Positions 3,041-55,461 of a DNA stretch of 64,000 bases are shown here, piece by piece. The DNA lies in the IMG/VR virus record IMGVR_UViG_3300029288_007102, positions 96,001 through 160,000 of that record; one strand, written 5' to 3'. A model generated the notes under the pieces. The model was not told the origin of the DNA and made no database searches. It worked only from the letters and a program-made list of their open reading frames with translations. This stretch comes from a virus (Duplodnaviria > Caudoviricetes). The position numbers and the translations under genes were made by a program. Position 1 is the first letter of the stretch. Every line of letters begins with the position of its first letter.

Positions 3041-3361
3041 ATGAACGAACAAATTGAAAAGATGATTGCAGATTGGGACAAAAATTTTAAGGTTCTTGTG
3101 GAGAGCGACAGGGTGGCTAAGGAGCAGGGGATCCTGGTAGGTCGGTATGTAAGTGAGCCTTTTGCTGATGGCAAGGCGTATTATAAGATAGTGTCAGAGA
3201 GTAAGACTAAAGTTAAAATAGAAGTGGTTACTGGGATCGGTGATGACTGGATCCTGCCGTATTGGGGAAGTAAGACCTCAATAAGTAAGGCCTACGCTAA
3301 AAGACAGATTGAAGGGAGAGAAGCCTTAGAGAAATTATTCAGCAGGAAATCGTCAGTCTAA
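3041..3361 (+). CDS. Hypothetical phage protein
   Basis: ORF 2969..3361 re-started at ATG 3041 after AAGGAG SD. Confidence 0.65.
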   Translation: MNEQIEKMIADWDKNFKVLVESDRVAKEQGILVGRYVSEPFADGKAYYKIVSESKTKVKIEVVTGIGDDWILPYWGSKTSISKAYAKRQIEGREALEKLFSRKSSV

Positions 3362-3371
3362 GGGGTGCTTT

Positions 3372-3950
3372 ATGAAGATTAAAAATCAAACACAATGGCA
3401 GACTAAACAACTCCGTAAAATCTTTATGGCCTGTCTTAATAAGGTAAGGAAGGATGAGAAGGGGAGTTTTAATCCGCAAGAATTTAAACGCATGTCAGAT
3501 CTCCAGATCCTAATTAAGTGGCATAAGACAACTTGGGTAGGTGGGTTTGCCTACTATCATAGTAAGACAATGTGCGTTAAAATGCCCCGGAGAGAGTCTA
3601 TTGTAGGTGGATATCCTGTCTGGAAACGGACGGCGAGCACATTTATCCATGAACTTGGGCATTGCTTAGGGATGCAACATACTGGAAGGTTTTATACCTT
3701 TGAGCAGTATTATGACGAATGGATCAATCAGACTTTTACTCCAGAAGCGTATCCTTTAGAATATTATCCGGAGAAACAAAAATTGGAGATCAAAACCAAT
3801 CTTAGGGAGTCCCGGTATCAGAAGGCATTGAAGTTCCAAGAGCGGGCGATAAGGAAACTTGAGAATGCCCGGAAGGGTCTAAAGAAGTGGACGAATAAGG
3901 TTAAGTATTATGAAAAGGTCTTAGCGGTAGCGAAGGGGAAGGAGCAATAG
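3372..3950 (+). CDS. Zinc metalloprotease-like (HExxH) protein
   Basis: FIHELGHCLG zincin motif; C-terminal coiled coil. Confidence 0.55.
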   Translation: MKIKNQTQWQTKQLRKIFMACLNKVRKDEKGSFNPQEFKRMSDLQILIKWHKTTWVGGFAYYHSKTMCVKMPRRESIVGGYPVWKRTASTFIHELGHCLGMQHTGRFYTFEQYYDEWINQTFTPEAYPLEYYPEKQKLEIKTNLRESRYQKALKFQERAIRKLENARKGLKKWTNKVKYYEKVLAVAKGKEQ

Positions 3951-6647: not shown

Positions 6648-7322
6648 ATGAATGAAAAAAAGATGAGAAAGTTAAAGGCAATTTTAATTATTGTTAGTTG
6701 TGTCCTAGCGGTAGTTGCTTGGGCAAAAGTAAGATCTGATTGGGGTTCTCTTAGCATCCAACATTTAAAAACAGAAGTTTTGGTTTATACAGATGGTTTG
6801 CAGACTAAGGGGATTTTTGATAGCCCAATAAAAATGAATAGATATATTCAAGATAAAGTGATTACCGATTCCTCTTTCTTCTTTTTCAGCATTCTTCTTC
6901 CTATTGTATCTGTTTTGATTATTATTAAACAAATTAATAATTTAAGAAGGATTGCGGAAATTAATGACAAGGCGGTAATGATAGTTAATCCGTTTGAAAT
7001 GGTAGGCCAATTAGATGAGAAAAAGTATGGATTTTGGGGAAGAATGAATAGCAGGTTCACTCCAAATGTTTTAGATAAAAAAGATAGAAGACGGTGGTTT
7101 TTGGGATGGATAACTGCCTCTTTAACCGTAGTGATAGTTATTCTTGCAGTTTTATTGCCAATTTCTCCTGCTGTTGCCGTTTTGCTTTCATATGTTTGTA
7201 TAGGAATGTTTGTTATAACCTTATGGTTAAATCCTTGGGCTGCGTTTGCCCTTGCGACTTTATTCCTCATATTTACTAGCAGAGCTCACGATAAGGCACG
7301 AGAAAGGGAAAGCAATGGTTAA
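6648..7322 (+). CDS. Multi-pass membrane protein
   Basis: Several hydrophobic segments; start moved to ATG 6648 after GGGGGAG SD. Confidence 0.6.
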   Translation: MNEKKMRKLKAILIIVSCVLAVVAWAKVRSDWGSLSIQHLKTEVLVYTDGLQTKGIFDSPIKMNRYIQDKVITDSSFFFFSILLPIVSVLIIIKQINNLRRIAEINDKAVMIVNPFEMVGQLDEKKYGFWGRMNSRFTPNVLDKKDRRRWFLGWITASLTVVIVILAVLLPISPAVAVLLSYVCIGMFVITLWLNPWAAFALATLFLIFTSRAHDKARERESNG

Positions 7323-8550
7323 AAAAAAGAAAGCTAAATGGGTCAAACATATAATTAAAGAAGGGGCCCGGTATCATGTTATCTGGTGGGATAACCTGGG
7401 GGCTCATTGCTCGGAACCAAATTGTGAGATTAATAGGCCAATAAAGAGAAGTAAAAAGTCAGCTCCTCTTGGGGATATTTATGGTACCCCGCCAGTTAGA
7501 AAGGTAATAGAAGAACTGGAAAAATTTTCTGTTCTCCAAGAAGTCTTGAAGAGTTTTGGTATTATTCCGTTAAAGGAGACAAAATGAATAATTTAGTAAC
7601 AGTTATGCCAGGGAGATTCTCAGAGAAGTCAAAATGTTCTATCAAGCGATGCAAGAAGAAGGTTAGATGGCTTATTTTTAGTTGGGACGGAAAACCGATG
7701 CTTTCTCGTCTTAGTAAACAGAGCTGTCATAAGCATTTGGCTGTTGTAGTTAAAAAGGCAATGATTGAGGACAAAAAGTTAGGAAACTTTAAGCCTACCG
7801 AGGTAGAACTATTGCGGGCAGAGATCGAACGGTTAAGGAAGGCCCAAAAATGAAAAAAGATTTGATTTTTTGGGTGATAGTCATAATAATAATGTCTGCC
7901 TTTTTTGATCTCCGATTGGAGATGAAGTATAAGAAGTTTATGAAAGAAGTTGATCAGAAGATAGAGAATCAACAAATCTTTAAATCACAGACAGAACTGT
8001 TGACCAACCAAATAGAACTTTCCAAAAAATTAGCATATAATCAAAAGTTAATTTGTTATGCGATCTTGGGGGATGACTTTATTTTAGATCCAGAAGAGAC
8101 AAAAAGATTTAAAGGGACAGAAGATGACAAAGAAAAATGAAGAATTAGATGGATTGGCGATAGTAAAACAAGCAATATTTTGGGTTAAGCAGATAGAAAG
8201 CGATTATTCTATTGAGGGGTTAACCTTAAAAGATAGGCAAGAGTTGAGGGTGGTCCTTTCTGCTGCGACTTTAATGTTAGAACAAGAAACTTTTAAGAAA
8301 AAAAGATGCGATGATATTACTTACAATAAACCTTGGCTTAGAGGTAAAGGTAAAAAATTTATAGTTAGGCAGTATGATGGATTTGACAATAATTGGATAG
8401 ATATCACTAAACCTTTGTCTTTAAAGGAAGCTATGAAAATCTGGAGAGCCCACACTAAAGATGGTACAGAAAAATATTGTTTTGAACACATAGATTATTA
8501 TGAGGTCTTCCCGGCTGGTACAAAAATGCTTTATAGTGCTGAGGGGCAAA

Positions 8551-10415: not shown

Positions 10416-10496
10416 CTTGAAGTGGTGGAATTGGCAGACATAGGGACTCTAGTCCCGGGCGGAAACGCCGTGTTGGTTCAAACCCAACCTTCAAGA
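10416..10496 (+). tRNA. Class II (Leu-like) tRNA or pseudo-tRNA with shortened anticodon loop
   Basis: Acceptor CTTGAAG/CTTCAAG, D region GTGGAATTGGCAGAC, arm GGGAC-TCTA-GTCCC, long variable arm GGCG-GAAA-CGCC, T arm GTTGG-TTCAAAC-CCAAC; no CCA. Confidence 0.75.
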
Positions 10497-40731: not shown

Positions 40732-41784
40732 ATGGTAAAAAAAGCAGATCTGCCTGAGGGGAAGAAGAATATGGATCCTTTAGCTGCCTCCATTGTTAAT
40801 GCTGTCAGTAAGAAGTATGGTGATGGAGTTGTATTTATGGCAGACGAAGCGGATGCCCCTTATAAGATTTCAGCTTTTATTCCTACCGGGAATATTGTGT
40901 TAGATAAGATTTGTGGTGGCGGGATCCCGGTAGGAAGGATTACTGAGATTTATGGGGATTTCAGTACAGGAAAGTCGGCGTTGGCTTACAAGATTCTGGC
41001 TAATACGCAGAAGATGGGTGGGGTGGCAATCTTATTTGATACAGAGATGGCCTATGATGCGGAGTGGGCGGAAAGAGTTTTTGGCCTGGACCCACATAAT
41101 CTTATACCAATGATGGTTGATACCATTGAAGAGTTTGCTGAGCTGGTTAGTTTCACCATAGAAGACGCTAAAGCGAAAAGAGATGGTAGGATAATAACTA
41201 TAGTCTTGGACAGTGTAGCGGCGACCAGCTTCAAAACAGAGATGGACGGTACTAGGGCCAGTGAAATGGGGAAGAGAGGCGGTCTTTGGTCTGAATGGCT
41301 GAGAAAGAATAGCCGGATGATAGCCAAAGAGAAGGTTGCTTTGGTTTTCATTAATCAAATAAGAGATAAGATGAACGTGATGTATGGTGCTAAAACGGAC
41401 ACGCCTGGTGGACACGCAATTAAATTTCACTCCTCTATCCGTTTGAAGATGAAGAATGTGGAAGACATTAAGGATGAAAAGACGAAGGAAGTGATCGGGG
41501 CAAGGATTGAGTTATTTACGGAGAAGAATAAGATTGCCCCTCCTTCTAAGACTGCCACGTTTGTATTAGATTTTGAGAAAGGGATCGGATTGTATGATGG
41601 GCTGTTGGATTATTTATGTAATCGTGGGGTGATTCAACAGGCTGGTGGATGGTACAACTATGGTACTAAGAAGAAATTTAGAAGCTCCGATTTTGAGGAA
41701 GTTCTTAAGGAGTTCCCTGAGCTTTTGGATTTAACCCAGAAAGCAACCGAAAGCGAGTTGAAGAATGAGGAGCCTACTTCTTGA
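40732..41784 (+). CDS. recA: RecA/UvsX recombinase
   Basis: GGIPVGRITEIYG.FSTGKS, LDSVAA, FINQIR, TPGG.AIKF, KNKIAPP. Confidence 0.93.
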   Translation: MVKKADLPEGKKNMDPLAASIVNAVSKKYGDGVVFMADEADAPYKISAFIPTGNIVLDKICGGGIPVGRITEIYGDFSTGKSALAYKILANTQKMGGVAILFDTEMAYDAEWAERVFGLDPHNLIPMMVDTIEEFAELVSFTIEDAKAKRDGRIITIVLDSVAATSFKTEMDGTRASEMGKRGGLWSEWLRKNSRMIAKEKVALVFINQIRDKMNVMYGAKTDTPGGHAIKFHSSIRLKMKNVEDIKDEKTKEVIGARIELFTEKNKIAPPSKTATFVLDFEKGIGLYDGLLDYLCNRGVIQQAGGWYNYGTKKKFRSSDFEEVLKEFPELLDLTQKATESELKNEEPTS

Positions 41785-49743: not shown

Positions 49744-49772
49744 TTGACAAGGAGATGGTTGTATAGTAGTAT
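49744..49772 (+). promoter_or_regulatory. Sigma70-type promoter for hairpin array/TerD operon
   Basis: TTGACA-17 bp-TAGTAT; spacer resembles the promoter at 4708. Confidence 0.65.
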
Positions 49773-49799
49773 AGTTGTATCAAAGATAAACAAAAGTTT

Positions 49800-50139
49800 A
49801 GGCATCGGTGGTTCCTATTATATCGTGGAATCAGCCCTTCGGGGCTGAGCAAATTACCACCCGCCTTTTTTTTATAATGATGGGCACAAGGGGTTCCTAA
49901 CAAAAAAAAGACTAACACTCTTCCTAATACCCCTCGCTCTATAATATTTGGGCATAAGCGGTTCCTAACATAAAATCCCGTTAAGATTCTACTGCTCGCC
50001 CTACTAATTAAAAGGCATAAGCCGTTCCTAACAATTTCAATTGGTGAAAATATACGGCTCGCCTTCTATTAAAAGGCATATAGAGGTTCCTAACAAAAAT
50101 CAAGCCCTTCGGGGCACCTGCGATAATACCTCTCGCCTT
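49800..50139 (+). ncRNA. Array of five structured RNA repeats
   Basis: Units GGCA-(2-3 nt)-6-bp stem-TCCTAACA(variable loop)T-stem'-C-GCC at 49800, 49882, 49950, 50012 and 50073, with covarying stems. Confidence 0.85.
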
Positions 50140-50164
50140 ATTTTGAATGAAAAGGAGAATGAAA

Positions 50165-52087
50165 ATGGAATCCACGATCAGACTGTTCAAAGCTTTACCT
50201 ATCACTAAGAAGGGGAAAAAGACTAACAAATCCTTATTGACGCAAACTGTCAAGAAGGGTTTTATTTTTGCCCCAGAGGTTGTCGCTAATTATAGTGAAG
50301 CGGAATTGCAGACTCTCGTTAAGGTAGTAGAGGAAAACCTTGGGCTGTCTGCAGACAAGATGAATAATGCGTTTCATAAGTCCTGGGGGAAAGTGGCGAC
50401 AGCCAGCATAGAGCAGCTAGTTGCCGAACAGATCGTGCATTATATGACTACCTATGGTTTTGAACGCTTGGGTATATATAATAAGGATACAGTATATATC
50501 CCTACTGAGAAGTTGAAGATCCCCAAGATAGATGTAGAAAAATTCCCCTTGATGGTTGTTAAGGGGTATACCAAAGTGGAGCTGAAATATAAGCTGATTG
50601 TTCTTTTGAGTTCCGGGGTTGCCCTGAAAGAAGATACCAAGAGGGATGTCGTTGATGTAGCATTGTTTATTGGGCTGACAGAGTATGATATTTCCTTGAT
50701 CAGGAACAAGGAAGTTAGGGTGGCCTTGTTTGATTACCTTGGGATGATCCCAGATAATCCTATTGAGTTTCTGCGGTTTATGGTTTATAAATCTATCAAT
50801 AAAACTCTGTTGATCAAAGACAGGGCAACCATTGCTGAGATAAAGATGAAGGACAATCTGGCGGCTCTTCGGTTGCTTGAGCAGTACCGGGAGAAATATG
50901 GCCTGAGTAGATTGGCGGAGATCTTCTATCGGTTTAAACCTTTGTTCCTGGCTTTTAGGTCTAACAAGAGTTTGAAGGTTATTATTAATAAGGTAAGGAA
51001 GCTTGCCCTAACTAACCATAAACCTATGGTGGAAGATTACTTGAATACCATTACTGCTTTGATCAAAAGAGGTGAGGAGATCGATAAGGCTAAATTAAAA
51101 TCTGAACTGAAAAGGGTAAACACTTTTAGGAAGATTCGTCTGGCTTACGCCTTGAACTTCCGGCTGACCGATGCAGGTTCCATTTTGTATAGGGTGAGGA
51201 ACGGGAAGAGTTTTGCTACTGGGTTTAAGTTCGACGGGCAGAAAGAGGCAAAAGGTATTTTGAAGATTGTTCTTAAATCCATTGCCAAGGACATTGCAGA
51301 GAATGTGGCGGGGAAGAAGGTTTATCTCCCCTCTAATATACAGTATGCTTTACCTGCGACAGAGAAGCAGTTTACTGGATATTTTCCTAGTGGCTCTTAT
51401 GTGTCTGTCCCTAAGGACATGATTTTTGGAGTACATTGGACGAATGTTGGTGATAGTAAAGGACTGTATAGTGATGGCCGGGTTGACCTAGATCTGTCTT
51501 TGATTTCGGTAGATGGGAAATTTGGTTGGGATAGATCCTACCGAAATGAAGAAGGCAGTATTTTATTCTCCGGAGATATGACTGACGCTCCTAAACCTAA
51601 TGGGGCGACGGAGCTTTTTTATGTAAAGCGGCAAGAGAAAATGGCTGCCATTCTAATGGTGAACTTCTTCAATGGTGGGGATTTTAGTGAAAACAAACAA
51701 GATGTCCCTTTTGATATTATCGTAGCGAAGGAACAGGCTAAAAACTTTAAGCAAAATTATATGGTTGATCCTAACAATGTGGTGGCCATTTCTAAGTCTG
51801 GCATTAAGGCTCAGCAGAAAGTATTGGGGTTGTTAGTGTCTACCCCCGAGGAAAGTAGATTTTACTTCGCAGAGTCTTATCTTGGCAAAGGGATAACTTC
51901 CAGGGAAACGGAATACGTTGCGGCTACTCGGCAATATTTCTCTGATTTCTATAAGAACCCCATTAGTTTGAATGAAATCTTGGAAGAGGCTGGGGTTAAA
52001 TTTGTAAAAGACCCGGAGAAAGCGGATATTGACCTCTCTCCTGAGAAGTTGGAGAAGGATACTATTTTGTCGCTGTTGGCGGCATAA
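50165..52087 (+). CDS. Large alpha-helical (ROT/TROVE-like) protein with C-terminal TerD-like domain
   Basis: C-terminal FGVHW....RVDLDLS..GW....ILFSGDMTDAP..GATE TerD pattern; helical N-region; AAGGAG SD before ATG 50165. The TROVE-like assignment is inferred from known architecture. Confidence 0.6.
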   Translation: MESTIRLFKALPITKKGKKTNKSLLTQTVKKGFIFAPEVVANYSEAELQTLVKVVEENLGLSADKMNNAFHKSWGKVATASIEQLVAEQIVHYMTTYGFERLGIYNKDTVYIPTEKLKIPKIDVEKFPLMVVKGYTKVELKYKLIVLLSSGVALKEDTKRDVVDVALFIGLTEYDISLIRNKEVRVALFDYLGMIPDNPIEFLRFMVYKSINKTLLIKDRATIAEIKMKDNLAALRLLEQYREKYGLSRLAEIFYRFKPLFLAFRSNKSLKVIINKVRKLALTNHKPMVEDYLNTITALIKRGEEIDKAKLKSELKRVNTFRKIRLAYALNFRLTDAGSILYRVRNGKSFATGFKFDGQKEAKGILKIVLKSIAKDIAENVAGKKVYLPSNIQYALPATEKQFTGYFPSGSYVSVPKDMIFGVHWTNVGDSKGLYSDGRVDLDLSLISVDGKFGWDRSYRNEEGSILFSGDMTDAPKPNGATELFYVKRQEKMAAILMVNFFNGGDFSENKQDVPFDIIVAKEQAKNFKQNYMVDPNNVVAISKSGIKAQQKVLGLLVSTPEESRFYFAESYLGKGITSRETEYVAATRQYFSDFYKNPISLNEILEEAGVKFVKDPEKADIDLSPEKLEKDTILSLLAA

Positions 52088-52090
52088 CAA

Positions 52091-52366
52091 GTCCAAGGCA
52101 CCGTACATCCACTTAAACGTGAGGTGGGTAGGTGATAATACAGCTAAAAAGAGGCGTTGATCCTAAGCCAAACAGTGCTGAGAGGGTTGGTAAGGGGAGT
52201 CTCTCCTTGTGACATTTAAAAGAATTGCTCCCGCCAGGGGATTGCTTCCCGGGACGCTTATCGGAGGAGGCCTGGAGAACGATAAGACCTGACTTGCTCG
52301 GGACAGATGCGAGAAGCATAGCAGACATTAGCAAGTGGCTTGACGAGCCCGGAGAGACGGGCACTT
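52091..52366 (+). ncRNA. Candidate ~275-nt structured RNA
   Basis: GC-rich gene-free gap; ends can pair (GTC-C-AAG/CTTGAC); terminal hairpin GCCCG-GAGAGA-CGGGC. Confidence 0.5.
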
Positions 52367-52388
52367 AGAAATAAGGGGAAGAAGAGAG

Positions 52389-54026: not shown

Positions 54027-54097
54027 CTGGGTGAGGTGTTGCGGTAGCATTTGCGGCCTGGGACCGTAAGGGGAAAGTTCGACTCTTTCCATCCAGA
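54027..54097 (+). tRNA. tRNA-Pro(TGG), non-canonical
   Basis: CTGGGTG/CATCCAG-A acceptor, TGCGG-CCTGGGA-CCGTA anticodon arm, GAAAG-TTCGACT-CTTTC T arm; C1:G72 and A73; no CCA. Confidence 0.8.
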
Positions 54098-54441: not shown

Positions 54442-55461
54442 GTGATTGAAAGAGAAATGGCGGAAGCCAATAAAATATTAGTAATCAGAACCGGGTCGCA
54501 TATGTATGGGACTAATCTCCCGAATTCTGATGAGGATAAGATGGGGGTGTTTATAGCTGACGAAGATTACTATCTTGGGTTGAAGACGGTAGAAGAAGTG
54601 GATTTTTCTGTACAGGAGAAGGATGAAAGAGGAAAGAATACAAAGGATGCTCTGGATTATAAGCTTTACGAGTTTAAGAAGTATATAAAGCTTGCTTGTG
54701 ATTGTAATCCGAACATCATAGAAATGTTGTATGTCAATGAACCAAACATTCTTTTTATCAATGATTTTGGGAAGACGTTATTGGAGCATCGGGAATTGTT
54801 TCCTAACCAGAGAGCTTACTATAAGTTTATTGGGTATGCCCACTCTCAGAAGCATAAGATGATTATAAAGGGGGATCATTACAGCCAAATTATGGCAGCC
54901 CATGCCTATTTGAAGGAGCTGCCAAACCGGGCCATAATGAAAGACTTTGAGAAGAAAGAGCTTCCGTTTTTGGTCTACAACAAGAATGCTTTTATTGAAG
55001 TGGGGGATATGAGGATCCCTACAAATACCACTGCCAAGAAGGCGACGGCTTTGCTGAAGGGGAGAATTGACCGCTTTGGTAATAGGACTGAGCTGATTAG
55101 TAAGTACGGTTATGATCTCAAGTTTGGTTCGCATTTGGTTAGGTTATTGGTTGAGGGGATAGAGTTGTTGAAGACTGGGGAGTTGCAGTATCCTATAAAA
55201 GAAAGGCAGCTGATCCTGGATGTCCGGCAAGGCAGATATACTCTCAAACAGGTATTTGATATGTATGATGAGTTGAGTAAGGAGATAGACTCAGTGTTTG
55301 CCAATACTAAGCTGCCGCATCACCCGGATATAAATAAGATAAATGATTTTTTGAAAAATATTGTTAAAAAGAAATGTGGTTTCCCAGTTAAAAGTTTCAG
55401 TAAAAATTGTGTAAGATGGATAGAAGGGGTATTAAATTTGCTAAAAGGGGGAAGATTGTAA
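54442..55461 (+). CDS. Pol-beta-superfamily nucleotidyltransferase (Nuc-transf type)
   Basis: GSHMYGTN.PNSDEDKMGVF, NPNIIE, YD.K..SHLVRL. Confidence 0.8.
   Translation: MIEREMAEANKILVIRTGSHMYGTNLPNSDEDKMGVFIADEDYYLGLKTVEEVDFSVQEKDERGKNTKDALDYKLYEFKKYIKLACDCNPNIIEMLYVNEPNILFINDFGKTLLEHRELFPNQRAYYKFIGYAHSQKHKMIIKGDHYSQIMAAHAYLKELPNRAIMKDFEKKELPFLVYNKNAFIEVGDMRIPTNTTAKKATALLKGRIDRFGNRTELISKYGYDLKFGSHLVRLLVEGIELLKTGELQYPIKERQLILDVRQGRYTLKQVFDMYDELSKEIDSVFANTKLPHHPDINKINDFLKNIVKKKCGFPVKSFSKNCVRWIEGVLNLLKGGRL

What the first reader, a model, noticed from the sequence alone, without database searches (positions are those of the whole stretch)
49744..52087. Five covarying hairpin RNA repeats upstream of a TROVE-like/TerD protein
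Seen: after a sigma70 promoter, five units (49800-49866, 49882-49939, 49950-50001, 50012-50065, 50073-50139) share one fold. An outer GGC/GCC stem leads to an asymmetric loop (A+2-3 nt opposite a single C), then a 6-bp stem that differs in each unit yet always pairs: GGTGGT/ACCACC, AGGGGT/ACCCCT, AGCGGT/ACTGCT, AGCCGT/ACGGCT, AGAGGT/ACCTCT. A conserved single-stranded UCCUAACA follows (UCCUAUUA in unit 1), then a variable loop. G-U pairs and cUUCGg tetraloops (units 1 and 5) fix the + strand. Established: helical ROT/TROVE-like + TerD fusion proteins are proposed RNA-processing components, and Ro60/TROVE binds bulged-helix Y RNAs. Inference: an array of small RNA ligands or guides for the downstream protein, i.e. 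a ribonucleoprotein system organised like CRISPR or type III toxin-antitoxin loci.
Basis: partly seen in the sequence, partly recalled or inferred. Interest (0 to 1): 0.88.

Follow-up and report, generated by a model that had tools for sequence, protein, structure and literature searches.

The report
Y-RNA-like array with TerD-domain partner protein
A large phage carries five small folded RNAs sharing one conserved "handle" directly in front of an uncharacterised 640-residue protein; this RNA-protein pair recurs in hundreds of phages and bacteria beside RNA ligases and tRNA genes, so it looks like an undescribed counterpart of the Ro60/Y-RNA particle.

Summary
Five units at 49798-50142 (+) share one fold: a 4-5 bp GGC/GCC stem, a 3-4 nt loop opposite one C, a 6-bp covarying stem, then invariant UUCCU. 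A covariance model built from them finds only these five in the 183-kb phage genome. It finds 335 more copies in 160 loci that encode homologues of the downstream protein. All lie on the gene's strand and almost all directly upstream.

In relatives the same handle closes a YrlA-like tRNA mimic (Rfam RF02553, 35-49.5 bits, below the cut-off of 69). It also replaces the anticodon loop of tRNA-shaped RNAs.

The protein is not detectably TROVE: no Pfam hit, hhalign probability 0.1 against a real Ro60, and structural Z of only 4.6-5.8. Its C-terminal domain has a TerD fold (Z 9.4).

RNA ligases recur beside the module: Rnl1 and RlaP here, and RtcB in 14 flavobacterial and 2 phage loci.

Best reading: a Ro60/Y-RNA-like particle built on a different protein, probably acting in tRNA/RNA damage control. 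Binding and function are inferred, not shown. CRISPR-like and toxin-antitoxin-like readings are not supported.

This scan reached the same conclusion before on other DNA (five earlier reports). I found no published description.

The parts
49744..49772 (+). Sigma-70-type promoter-like site TTGACA-17-TAGTAT, about 28 nt before unit 1
   Evidence: 10 of 12 matches; sequence. A consensus match only; transcription was not shown.
49800..49866 (+). Unit 1: handle (AGGC/GCCU, AUC opposite C, GGUGGU/ACCACC, UUCCUAUUA) with an apical 7-bp hairpin capped by UUCG, followed by U8
   Evidence: MFE -27.4, z -3.0; 63.5 bits, E 1.9e-13
49882..49939 (+). Unit 2: minimal handle RNA (GGGC/GCUC with one G-U; AGGGGU/ACCCCU) with an A-rich open loop
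   Evidence: 71.7 bits, E 1.7e-15
49950..50001 (+). Unit 3: minimal handle RNA (GGGC/GCCC; AGCGGU/ACUGCU with one G-U)
   Evidence: 64.5 bits
50012..50065 (+). Unit 4: minimal handle RNA (AAGGC/GCCUU; AGCCGU/ACGGCU)
   Evidence: 61.3 bits
50073..50139 (+). Unit 5: handle RNA (AAGGC/GCCUU; AGAGGU/ACCUCU) with an apical GCCC-UUCG-GGGC hairpin; it ends 25 nt before the start codon
   Evidence: 62.7 bits
50152..50157 (+). Shine-Dalgarno AAGGAG, 7 nt before the ATG at 50165
   Evidence: Read directly
50165..51364 (+). Residues 1-400 of the 640-aa protein P0001: mostly helical domain with no recognisable fold. Residues 62-127 are highly conserved (FHKSWxK, EQxxHYxTTYGF) but modelled with low confidence
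   Evidence: (pLDDT 86.5)
51392..51949 (+). Residues about 410-595: TerD-fold beta-sandwich with conserved DLDLS and FSGD..T....G..E motifs
   Evidence: 2qz7_B Z 9.4, 141 aligned, rmsd 3.4; 2kxt Z 8.9; Foldseek probability 1.0; invariant columns
51950..52087 (+). C-terminal helices of P0001 and the stop codon
52389..53477 (+). Context: T4 Rnl1-type RNA ligase, 300 nt downstream
   Evidence: PF09511, 6e-21; phrog_562, 7.7e-65
54027..54097 (+). Context: tRNA-Pro(UGG)
54442..55461 (+). Context: RlaP (RNA-ligase-associated Pol-beta) nucleotidyltransferase
   Evidence: PF10127, 1.1e-20; phrog_388

Best explanation
The locus encodes a ribonucleoprotein module that works like the Ro60/Y-RNA particle but uses a different protein. 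One promoter transcribes five small RNAs and the mRNA of a 640-aa protein made of a novel helical domain plus a TerD domain. Each RNA carries the same handle: an outer GGC/GCC stem, an A-N-A loop opposite a bulged C, a 6-bp stem, and single-stranded UUCCUA. The protein most likely binds that handle one-to-one after the units are cut out of the leader. In relatives the handle sits at the anticodon end of a tRNA-shaped body, either in YrlA-like topology or in tRNA topology. The particle therefore probably presents or mimics tRNA. It probably acts with the neighbouring RNA ligase (Rnl1 here, RtcB elsewhere) and the RlaP nucleotidyltransferase in surveillance or repair of damaged tRNA/RNA. In a phage that would counter host RNA-cleaving defences. 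The five units here are minimal forms: handle plus a short variable loop. Shown: RNA structure, covariation, RNA-gene linkage, the TerD fold, the recurring RNA-repair and tRNA context, and the YrlA-like relatives. Inferred: co-transcription, processing, physical binding and the repair role.
For: The structure and its covariation hold in the window and in 135 distinct units from relatives. Invariant handle bases are C-A-N-A, G-U-U-C-C-U, the bulged C and the following G.

Linkage. There are 207 model hits in 80 IMG/VR loci, all on the gene's strand, nearly all within 0.5 kb upstream and a few just downstream. There are 128 hits in 80 loci from cellular assemblies at 31-55% protein identity, again all on the + strand directly upstream. 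In five phage genomes that are 91-100% complete (1.1 Mb in total), all 12 hits lie within 1.6 kb of the gene. The own genome has only these five. The cultured cyanophages S-CRM01 and S-CBWM1 carry the pair as well.

Y-RNA link. Long units contain a T arm, a capped acceptor and a D arm, and match Rfam YrlA over its full length at 49.5, 42, 39, 35.9 and 34.9 bits. The handle also replaces the anticodon loop of tRNA-shaped RNAs in Chryseobacterium and in phage arrays, which score 50-62 bits on the tRNA model.

Context. Rnl1 and RlaP flank the module here. In Chryseobacterium gregarium the order is RtcB, RNAs, protein, RlaP. RtcB lies directly upstream in 14 Flavobacteriales loci and in phage loci L005 and L006. 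tRNA genes lie within 4 kb in 21 of 80 viral loci. No canonical TROVE protein is found in the own genome or in the five other phage genomes.
Against: There is no direct evidence of expression, processing or binding. The protein has no detectable similarity to Ro60. The five window units lack the tRNA-like domain and do not hit YrlA at all. The YrlA hits in relatives are below Rfam's gathering score. RNA-repair neighbours were detected in only a minority of viral loci by the crude tblastn used: Rnl1 in 2 of 80, RlaP in 3 of 80 and RtcB in 2 of 80. The repair role is therefore contextual, not universal. One planctomycete locus has a true Ro60 next to the module, so the two are not simple substitutes.
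Confidence: 0.6

Rival explanations
1. Cis-regulatory leader. The hairpins are operator sites in the gene's own 5' UTR. The protein binds them to repress its own translation, or to attenuate transcription, and the RNAs have no separate life.
For: The units lie on the same strand directly before the gene, and the last one ends about 25 nt before the start codon. Unit 1 is followed by U8.
Against: In some loci the units lie downstream of the gene (L033, L072/L076, L031, L004, L078, S-CRM01) or 0.4-1.6 kb upstream (L021, L024, L070). One unit in S-CBWM1 lies among tRNA genes 2.5 kb away. Some units are full tRNA or YrlA mimics. Up to 7 copies is excessive for an operator. UUCCU stays invariant in cyanophage and Bacteroidota loci whose genes have no Shine-Dalgarno sequence, which argues against anti-SD pairing. 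No terminator-like site was called.
Confidence: 0.12
2. Decoy or sponge. The RNAs, with or without the protein, titrate a host factor that recognises tRNA, such as an anticodon nuclease. They act as bait, not as a repair scaffold.
For: Relatives carry tRNA-shaped RNAs whose anticodon loop is replaced by the handle, so they would be uncleavable tRNA look-alikes. The module sits in phage tRNA clusters. The phage context is one of conflict with the host.
Against: The module is also chromosomal in Chryseobacterium, inside an RtcB-RlaP operon, where a decoy against the cell's own nucleases makes less sense. The five window units have no tRNA-like body. The strict linkage to one protein argues that the protein is the main partner.
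Confidence: 0.13
3. Type III toxin-antitoxin-like pair. The protein is a toxic RNase that cuts the repeat transcript into units, and the units then neutralise it.
For: The order is promoter, RNA array, then gene, as in ToxIN.
Against: The units share only the handle (63% mean column identity) and are not exact direct repeats. No nuclease fold or family was detected. No terminator lies between array and gene. The module sits in RtcB/RlaP operons and tRNA clusters. PADLOC was not searched.
Confidence: 0.07
4. RNA-guided system. The variable apical loops are guides that direct the protein to complementary nucleic acids.
For: Each unit has a constant handle and a variable region, and several units occur per locus.
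Against: The variable regions have a median of 25 nt, are AU-rich, and are often self-paired hairpins with GNRA or UUCG caps or whole tRNA-like domains. None of the five matches the phage genome beyond 11 nt, which is the chance expectation. No nuclease or helicase domain was found.
Confidence: 0.04

Closest known systems
Bacterial Ro60 (Rsr) with Y RNAs YrlA and YrlB, as in the Salmonella rsr-yrlBA-rtcBA operon and mycobacteriophage Ro60 loci (Chen et al. 2014, PMC4201824; Rfam RF02553)
   Same: One to several small RNA genes lie within a few kb of one protein gene, on the same strand. Each RNA has a closing stem with an asymmetric internal loop that carries the conserved motif. In some RNAs a tRNA-like domain (T arm, capped acceptor, D arm) replaces the apical part. 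A CUAY element follows the handle helix. The module sits next to RtcB and other RNA-repair genes. Minimal partners without the tRNA domain exist, as with YrlB. The protein is a large helical domain followed by a metal-binding-type domain.
   Different: The protein has no TROVE or vWA signal by sequence, profile or fold. Its C-terminal domain is TerD. The handle motif is GGCAUA-RGNRGU-UUCCUA, not GNCGAAN0-1G. Arrays reach 7 units. Most units are 50-70 nt with no tRNA-like part. The handle also occurs capped inside otherwise tRNA-ordered RNAs. The phages carrying the module lack Ro60.
TerD-family proteins of tellurite-resistance (Ter) operons (PDB 2kxt, 2qz7, 3ibz)
   Same: The C-terminal domain has the same beta-sandwich fold (Z 8.9-9.4), and DLD and SGD..T motifs are retained where TerD binds Ca2+.
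   Different: Pfam TerD is not hit. The domain is fused to a 400-aa helical domain. No other Ter genes are nearby. The context is RNA, not membrane or metal stress.
Type III toxin-antitoxin loci (ToxIN)
   Same: A promoter, then an array of small structured RNAs, then a protein gene on one strand.
   Different: The units are not identical repeats. No endoribonuclease fold was found. There is no terminator between array and gene. The neighbourhood is RNA repair and tRNA genes.

Membership tests
Ro60 / TROVE proteins | TROVE domain (Pfam PF05731) detectable in the sequence | tested here: not met
   P0001 and 25 family members have no Pfam hit even at E<=1. A six-frame search with PF05731 finds nothing in the own genome or in five other phage genomes carrying the module, while control genomes score. 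hhalign of the 70-sequence N-domain profile against a genuine Ro60 from L100 gives probability 0.1.
Ro60 / TROVE proteins | HEAT-repeat ring fold like the solved Ro60 structures | tested here: inconclusive
   Ro60 chains appear only among generic helical matches: 1yvp_A Z 5.8 with 68 residues aligned at rank 33, and phage Ro60 9l5y_B Z 4.6 with 191 aligned at rmsd 6.6, rank 46. Foldseek against the PDB and the Atlas search show no Ro60 or TROVE match.
Ro60 / TROVE proteins | C-terminal vWA domain with a MIDAS site | tested here: not met
   The C-terminal domain matches the TerD fold (Z 9.4 and 8.9; Foldseek probability 1.0) and not vWA.
Y RNA / YrlA (Rfam RF02553) | Score at or above Rfam's gathering cut-off of 69 bits | tested here: not met
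   The window units give no YrlA hit even at E<=10. The long units of relatives score 34.9-49.5 bits over the full model, with E from 2e-8 to 4e-4.
Y RNA / YrlA (Rfam RF02553) | tRNA-like domain (T arm, capped acceptor stem, D arm) above the closing stem | tested here: not met
   It is absent from all five window units, which have open loops or simple hairpins. It is present in units of L001, L032, L057, L106 and S-CRM01.
Y RNA / YrlA (Rfam RF02553) | GNCGAAN0-1G motif near the 5' end, proposed as the Ro60 contact | tested here: not met
   The equivalent position reads GGCAUARG in 135 units. This agrees with GNCGAANG at 4 of the 6 specified positions (G1, C3, A6, G8) and differs at the central GA. 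The motif is quoted from PMC4201824.
Y RNA / YrlA (Rfam RF02553) | Encoded within about 4 kb of the partner protein gene, on the same strand | tested here: met
   All hits are on the gene's strand, nearly all within 0.5 kb, in 77 of 80 viral loci and throughout the 80 loci from cellular assemblies (128 hits). There are no hits elsewhere in six whole phage genomes. The partner is not Ro60.
TerD domain | TerD beta-sandwich fold with acidic Ca2+-binding motifs | tested here: met
   The fold matches 2qz7_B (Z 9.4), 2kxt (Z 8.9) and 3ibz (Foldseek probability 1.0). D441-L-D-L-S445 and F468-S-G-D471...G480..E483 are invariant in 25 sequences. The Pfam TerD model does not hit, so this is a divergent member. 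Ca2+ binding was not tested.
Type III toxin-antitoxin (ToxIN-like) | Array of near-identical direct RNA repeats processed by, and inhibiting, the adjacent endoribonuclease | tested here: not met
   The units share 63% of columns, and only the handle is conserved. No RNase family or fold was found. Processing and toxicity cannot be tested with these tools.
CRISPR-like guide array | Constant repeats that alternate with unique spacers matching foreign or own targets | tested here: not met
   The variable parts lie inside each hairpin, are 16-88 nt and are often self-structured. There are no matches beyond chance in the phage genome. Host genomes were not searched.

The most novel reading that the evidence does not exclude
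A second, evolutionarily independent Ro-like particle. A widespread protein family (over 1,400 clusters at 50% identity) with a new helical RNA-binding fold plus a TerD domain has its own Y-RNA lineage. The handle of these RNAs docks at the anticodon end of tRNA mimics. The arrays of minimal handle RNAs may act as adaptors that recruit RNA ligases and RlaP to damaged tRNAs, or may gate the protein's access to them. That would be a general tRNA-damage response shared by large phages and by bacteria of several phyla.
Probability: 0.4. Interest if true: 0.85.

Novelty: new variant of a known kind. Interest (0 to 1): 0.78.

Why it matters
Ro60/Y-RNA particles are the only well-studied case in which a dedicated small RNA adapts a protein for RNA quality control. 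In bacteria they sit in RtcB repair operons whose substrates are still unclear. Here YrlA-like RNAs pair with a protein that is not Ro60, across large phages and cellular genome assemblies assigned to several phyla (many are MAG contigs that may be viral). That would mean the tRNA-mimic-plus-handle design is more general than the TROVE family. It also gives a function to a large family of 'hypothetical' phage proteins, and explains why some tRNA-shaped RNAs in phage arrays carry 45-nt 'introns'. Culturable systems exist for direct tests: cyanophage S-CRM01 on Synechococcus LC16, and Chryseobacterium gregarium DSM 19109.

Tried and rejected
- **Rfam.** A search at gathering threshold and one at E<=10 over the array gave no meaningful family for the five units.
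- **Protein family searches.** Pfam, PHROGs and PDB sequence searches with P0001 or its profiles returned nothing.
- **Fold searches of the N-terminal domain.** PDB Foldseek, VIA-align wide, the ESM Atlas and BFVD returned only the protein's own family or generic helical matches. Absence of a Ro60 match is recorded here and does not count as proof of a new fold.
- **DNA similarity.** blastn of the region against GenBank phages gave no match.
- **Conserved neighbours.** Eight upstream and five downstream ORFs of the window have no counterpart in the other 80 viral loci, so the mobile unit is array plus gene only.
- **Guide hypothesis.** The longest matches of the apical loops in the 183-kb genome are 10-11 nt, against about 11.6 expected by chance.
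- **Anti-Shine-Dalgarno pairing of UUCCU.** Rejected, because UUCCU stays invariant where the gene has no SD, as in S-CRM01 and Chryseobacterium.
- **The GC-rich spacer at 52088-52388 as part of the module.** It has no Rfam hit and is not conserved in any related locus.
- **A crude regex hit at 40868-40940.** The covariance model does not support it.
- **Closest homologue (P0002, 86% identity).** No DNA was available, so orthologous loops could not be compared.
- **Burroughs & Aravind 2016 (NAR).** The paper could not be read, because it is not held.
Full report
**Observation**

The window belongs to a 183-kb IMG/VR virus record classed as a provirus; the window is bases 96001-160000 of it. 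Between a promoter-like site (TTGACA-17-TAGTAT, 49744-49772) and an ATG at 50165 lie five units. That ATG has a good Shine-Dalgarno sequence (AAGGAG, 7-nt spacing).

The units are at 49800-49866, 49882-49939, 49950-50001, 50012-50065 and 50073-50139. They align with invariant GGCA, G..GUUCCUA, AC..C.CGC. Folded separately, each adopts the same minimum-free-energy shape:
- an outer stem of 4-5 bp;
- 3-4 nt opposite a single C;
- a 6-bp inner stem;
- a large loop that begins UUCCUA.

All 50 pair cells are standard pairs. Four pairs carry compensatory changes. Sliding the partners by 1-3 columns reduces pairing to 33-58%. G-U pairs and UUCG-capped hairpins fix the + strand.

**More than chance, and tied to the gene**

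A covariance model of the five units (R1) finds only these five in the window and in the whole phage genome.

The downstream protein P0001 (640 aa) has no Pfam or PHROG match. It nevertheless belongs to a large unnamed family. There are over 2,000 hits among the candidates scored in the 90%-identity collection and 1,427 clusters at 50% identity.

In 80 IMG/VR loci that encode homologues (41-63% identity), R1 finds 207 units. All are on the gene's strand and nearly all lie within 0.5 kb upstream. Exceptions:
- units just downstream in L033, L072/L076, L031, L004 and L078;
- units 0.4-1.6 kb upstream in L021, L024 and L070.

Units were found in 77 of the 80 loci. The three without a hit have the gene at the contig edge.

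In five phage genomes that are 91-100% complete (1.1 Mb in total), all 12 hits lie within 1.6 kb of the gene. In 80 loci from bacterial and archaeal assemblies (31-55% identity), 128 further hits show the same pattern. Many of those contigs may be viral DNA binned into MAGs.

The two cultured cyanophages with a homologue at 29% identity, S-CRM01 g174 and S-CBWM1 gp22, also carry units.

On 135 distinct units, 99.5% of cells pair and 8 of 10 pairs show compensatory change. The covariation score is 0.625 against 0.228 for shuffles. Because that alignment was fitted to the model, its pairing counts lean towards the structure. Arrays hold one to seven units.

**What the RNA is**

The conserved part is a handle: rGGC-A-N-A, R-G-N-R-G-U, U-U-C-C-U-A, then A-C-Y-N-C-Y, C, GCCy. 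The apical part is free to vary, with a median of 25 nt and a range of 16-88 nt.

In the longest units the apical part is a permuted tRNA: a T arm (GGTTCGAWT), a capped acceptor-like hairpin and a D arm (TAGCTCA..GGTAGAGC). These units match Rfam YrlA (RF02553) over the whole model:
- L057, 49.5 and 34.9 bits;
- L106, 42 bits;
- L032, 39 bits;
- S-CRM01, 35.9 bits.

These scores are significant but below the gathering score of 69. YrlA is the tRNA-mimicking Y RNA bound by bacterial Ro60. Its genes lie within 4 kb of rsr on the same strand (Chen et al. 2014, PMC4201824).

The architectures correspond. Both run helix, asymmetric loop, helix, CUAY, then the tRNA-like domain. At the position of YrlA's proposed Ro60-contact motif GNCGAAN0-1G, this family reads GGCAUARG.

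A second topology also exists. In Chryseobacterium species, and inside several phage arrays (L010, L016, L026, L027, L004, L099), a tRNA-ordered RNA of 110-115 nt scores 50-62 bits on the tRNA model. Its anticodon loop is replaced by the same handle, this time capped on the outer-stem side.

Two circularly permuted ways of attaching the handle to the anticodon end of a tRNA-shaped body argue that the handle is a discrete docking module. The five units of this window are minimal forms: the handle plus an open loop or a simple hairpin. In that they are comparable to YrlB, which lacks the tRNA-like part.

**What the protein is**

A full-length AlphaFold model (pLDDT 77) shows a mostly helical N-terminal 400 residues and a beta-rich domain at about 410-595. 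The beta domain is a TerD fold:
- 2qz7_B, Z 9.4, 141 residues aligned, rmsd 3.4;
- 2kxt, Z 8.9;
- Foldseek probability 1.0.

It has invariant DLDLS and FSGD..T....G..E motifs.

The N-terminal domain was modelled alone with 70 diverse sequences (pLDDT 86.5). It matches nothing convincingly:
- best Z 7.1, over about 75 residues;
- Ro60 1yvp_A at rank 33 (Z 5.8, 68 residues);
- phage Ro60 9l5y_B at rank 46 in the full-model search (Z 4.6, 191 residues, rmsd 6.6).

The Atlas and BFVD searches return only its own family. That includes proteins of Campylobacter virus IBB35 and Lactobacillus phage LpeD. A profile-profile comparison with a genuine Ro60 found in locus L100 gives probability 0.1.

Membership in TROVE is therefore not supported by sequence and is inconclusive by structure. 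The vWA domain of Ro60 is replaced by TerD.

Residues 62-127 hold the most conserved motifs (N67, H71-K-S-W74, Q89, H92-Y93, T95-T-Y-G98) yet are modelled with low confidence. They may order only on RNA, which is an inference.

**Context**

Only the array and the gene travel together. None of the window's other flanking ORFs recurs in the 80 viral loci. What recurs is a theme.
- Here the next genes are a T4 Rnl1-type RNA ligase (300 nt downstream), tRNA-Pro and an RlaP nucleotidyltransferase.
- In Chryseobacterium gregarium DSM 19109 the order is RtcB, a tRNA-shaped handle RNA, three minimal units, the protein, RlaP, SIR2.
- RtcB lies directly upstream in 14 Flavobacteriales loci and in phage loci L005 and L006.
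- Rnl1 follows the gene in L057 and L058, and RlaP lies within 4 kb in L033, L046 and L047.
- In S-CRM01, S-CBWM1, L001 and others the module sits inside tRNA gene clusters. In all, 21 of 80 viral loci have a tRNA gene within 4 kb.

This is the neighbourhood in which Ro60 and its Y RNAs sit in Salmonella (rsr-yrlBA-rtcBA). RlaP was named for its association with RNA ligases (PMC7824862). The own genome and five other phage genomes that carry the module have no TROVE protein. One planctomycete locus has a true Ro60 1.8 kb away on the other strand.

**Mechanism**

Most likely the promoter drives one transcript, the units are excised from the leader, and each binds one copy of the protein through the handle. 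The resulting particle acts with RNA ligase and RlaP on damaged tRNA or other RNAs. In a phage this would counter host RNA-cleaving defences.

The compensatory divergence of the inner stems between neighbouring units may keep tandem copies from mispairing. That too is an inference.

Shown here are the structure, the covariation, the linkage, the TerD fold, the kinship with YrlA-like and tRNA-like RNAs, and the recurring context. Not shown are transcription, processing, binding and any activity.

Rivals:
- **Autoregulatory leader.** Weakened by downstream and distant units and by the tRNA-mimic units.
- **tRNA decoy against host nucleases.** Possible for phages, less so for the chromosomal RtcB operons.
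- **ToxIN-like pair.** No identical repeats, no RNase fold, no terminator.
- **Guide array.** Loops are short, structured, and without targets beyond chance.

**Novelty**

Full-text searches for combinations of TROVE, TerD, RtcB, RlaP, Ro60, Y RNA, phage and YrlA found no description of this pair. The jumbo-phage survey treats ROT/TROVE proteins and TerD separately.

The scan itself has met this system before on other DNA. Five follow-up reports reach the same reading. I reproduced their main claims independently before seeing them, and I do not count them as evidence.

I class the finding as a new variant of a known kind: a Ro60/Y-RNA-like particle with a different protein and a different handle.

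Noticed in passing
window 52088-52388: A 300-nt ORF-free spacer between the gene and the RNA ligase. Its GC is 51% against 40% for the window, and it folds to -86 kcal/mol. It has no Rfam hit and no counterpart in any related locus or elsewhere in the genome.
   Followed up: partly
L166 (Synechococcus phage S-CRM01, NC_015569) 3291-3437, minus strand: The annotated ORF g173c (48 aa) lies entirely inside the RNA array upstream of g174, on the opposite strand. It is probably not a real gene.
   Followed up: partly
L010:3808-3922, L016:3802-3912, L026:3836-3949, L027:3774-3889, L004:5957-6067, L099:2797-2906, L148:2637-2745: tRNA-shaped RNAs of 110-115 nt pass Rfam's tRNA cut-off (50-62 bits), but the anticodon loop is replaced by the capped handle. 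ARAGORN found no tRNA gene in L148, the one of these loci it was run on individually. Annotation pipelines could call such RNAs intron-containing tRNAs or pseudo-tRNAs.
   Followed up: partly
L100 (Bythopirellula sp. MAG, OZ245849) 6681-7865, minus strand: A genuine Ro60 (TROVE plus vWA_Ro60) lies 1.8 kb from the module on the other strand. No canonical YrlA was detected within the locus. The two systems can therefore coexist.
   Followed up: partly
window 10416-10496: ARAGORN calls a tRNA-like gene with an undetermined two-base 'anticodon' (ct). Earlier notes list several non-canonical tRNA-like RNAs in this phage next to tRNA-repair genes.
   Followed up: no
L005:6335-7087 and 7374-8204: In one phage locus the module is followed by QueC (7-deazaguanine / queuosine pathway) and a DUF5591 protein, and is preceded by RtcB. 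This is another nucleic-acid modification link.
   Followed up: no
L148:6551-7381 and L147: A SIR2-family gene follows RlaP in the Chryseobacterium RtcB-RNA-protein-RlaP cluster.
   Followed up: no
L006:5913-9899: The gene after the module is a DnaE-type polymerase interrupted by an intein.
   Followed up: no
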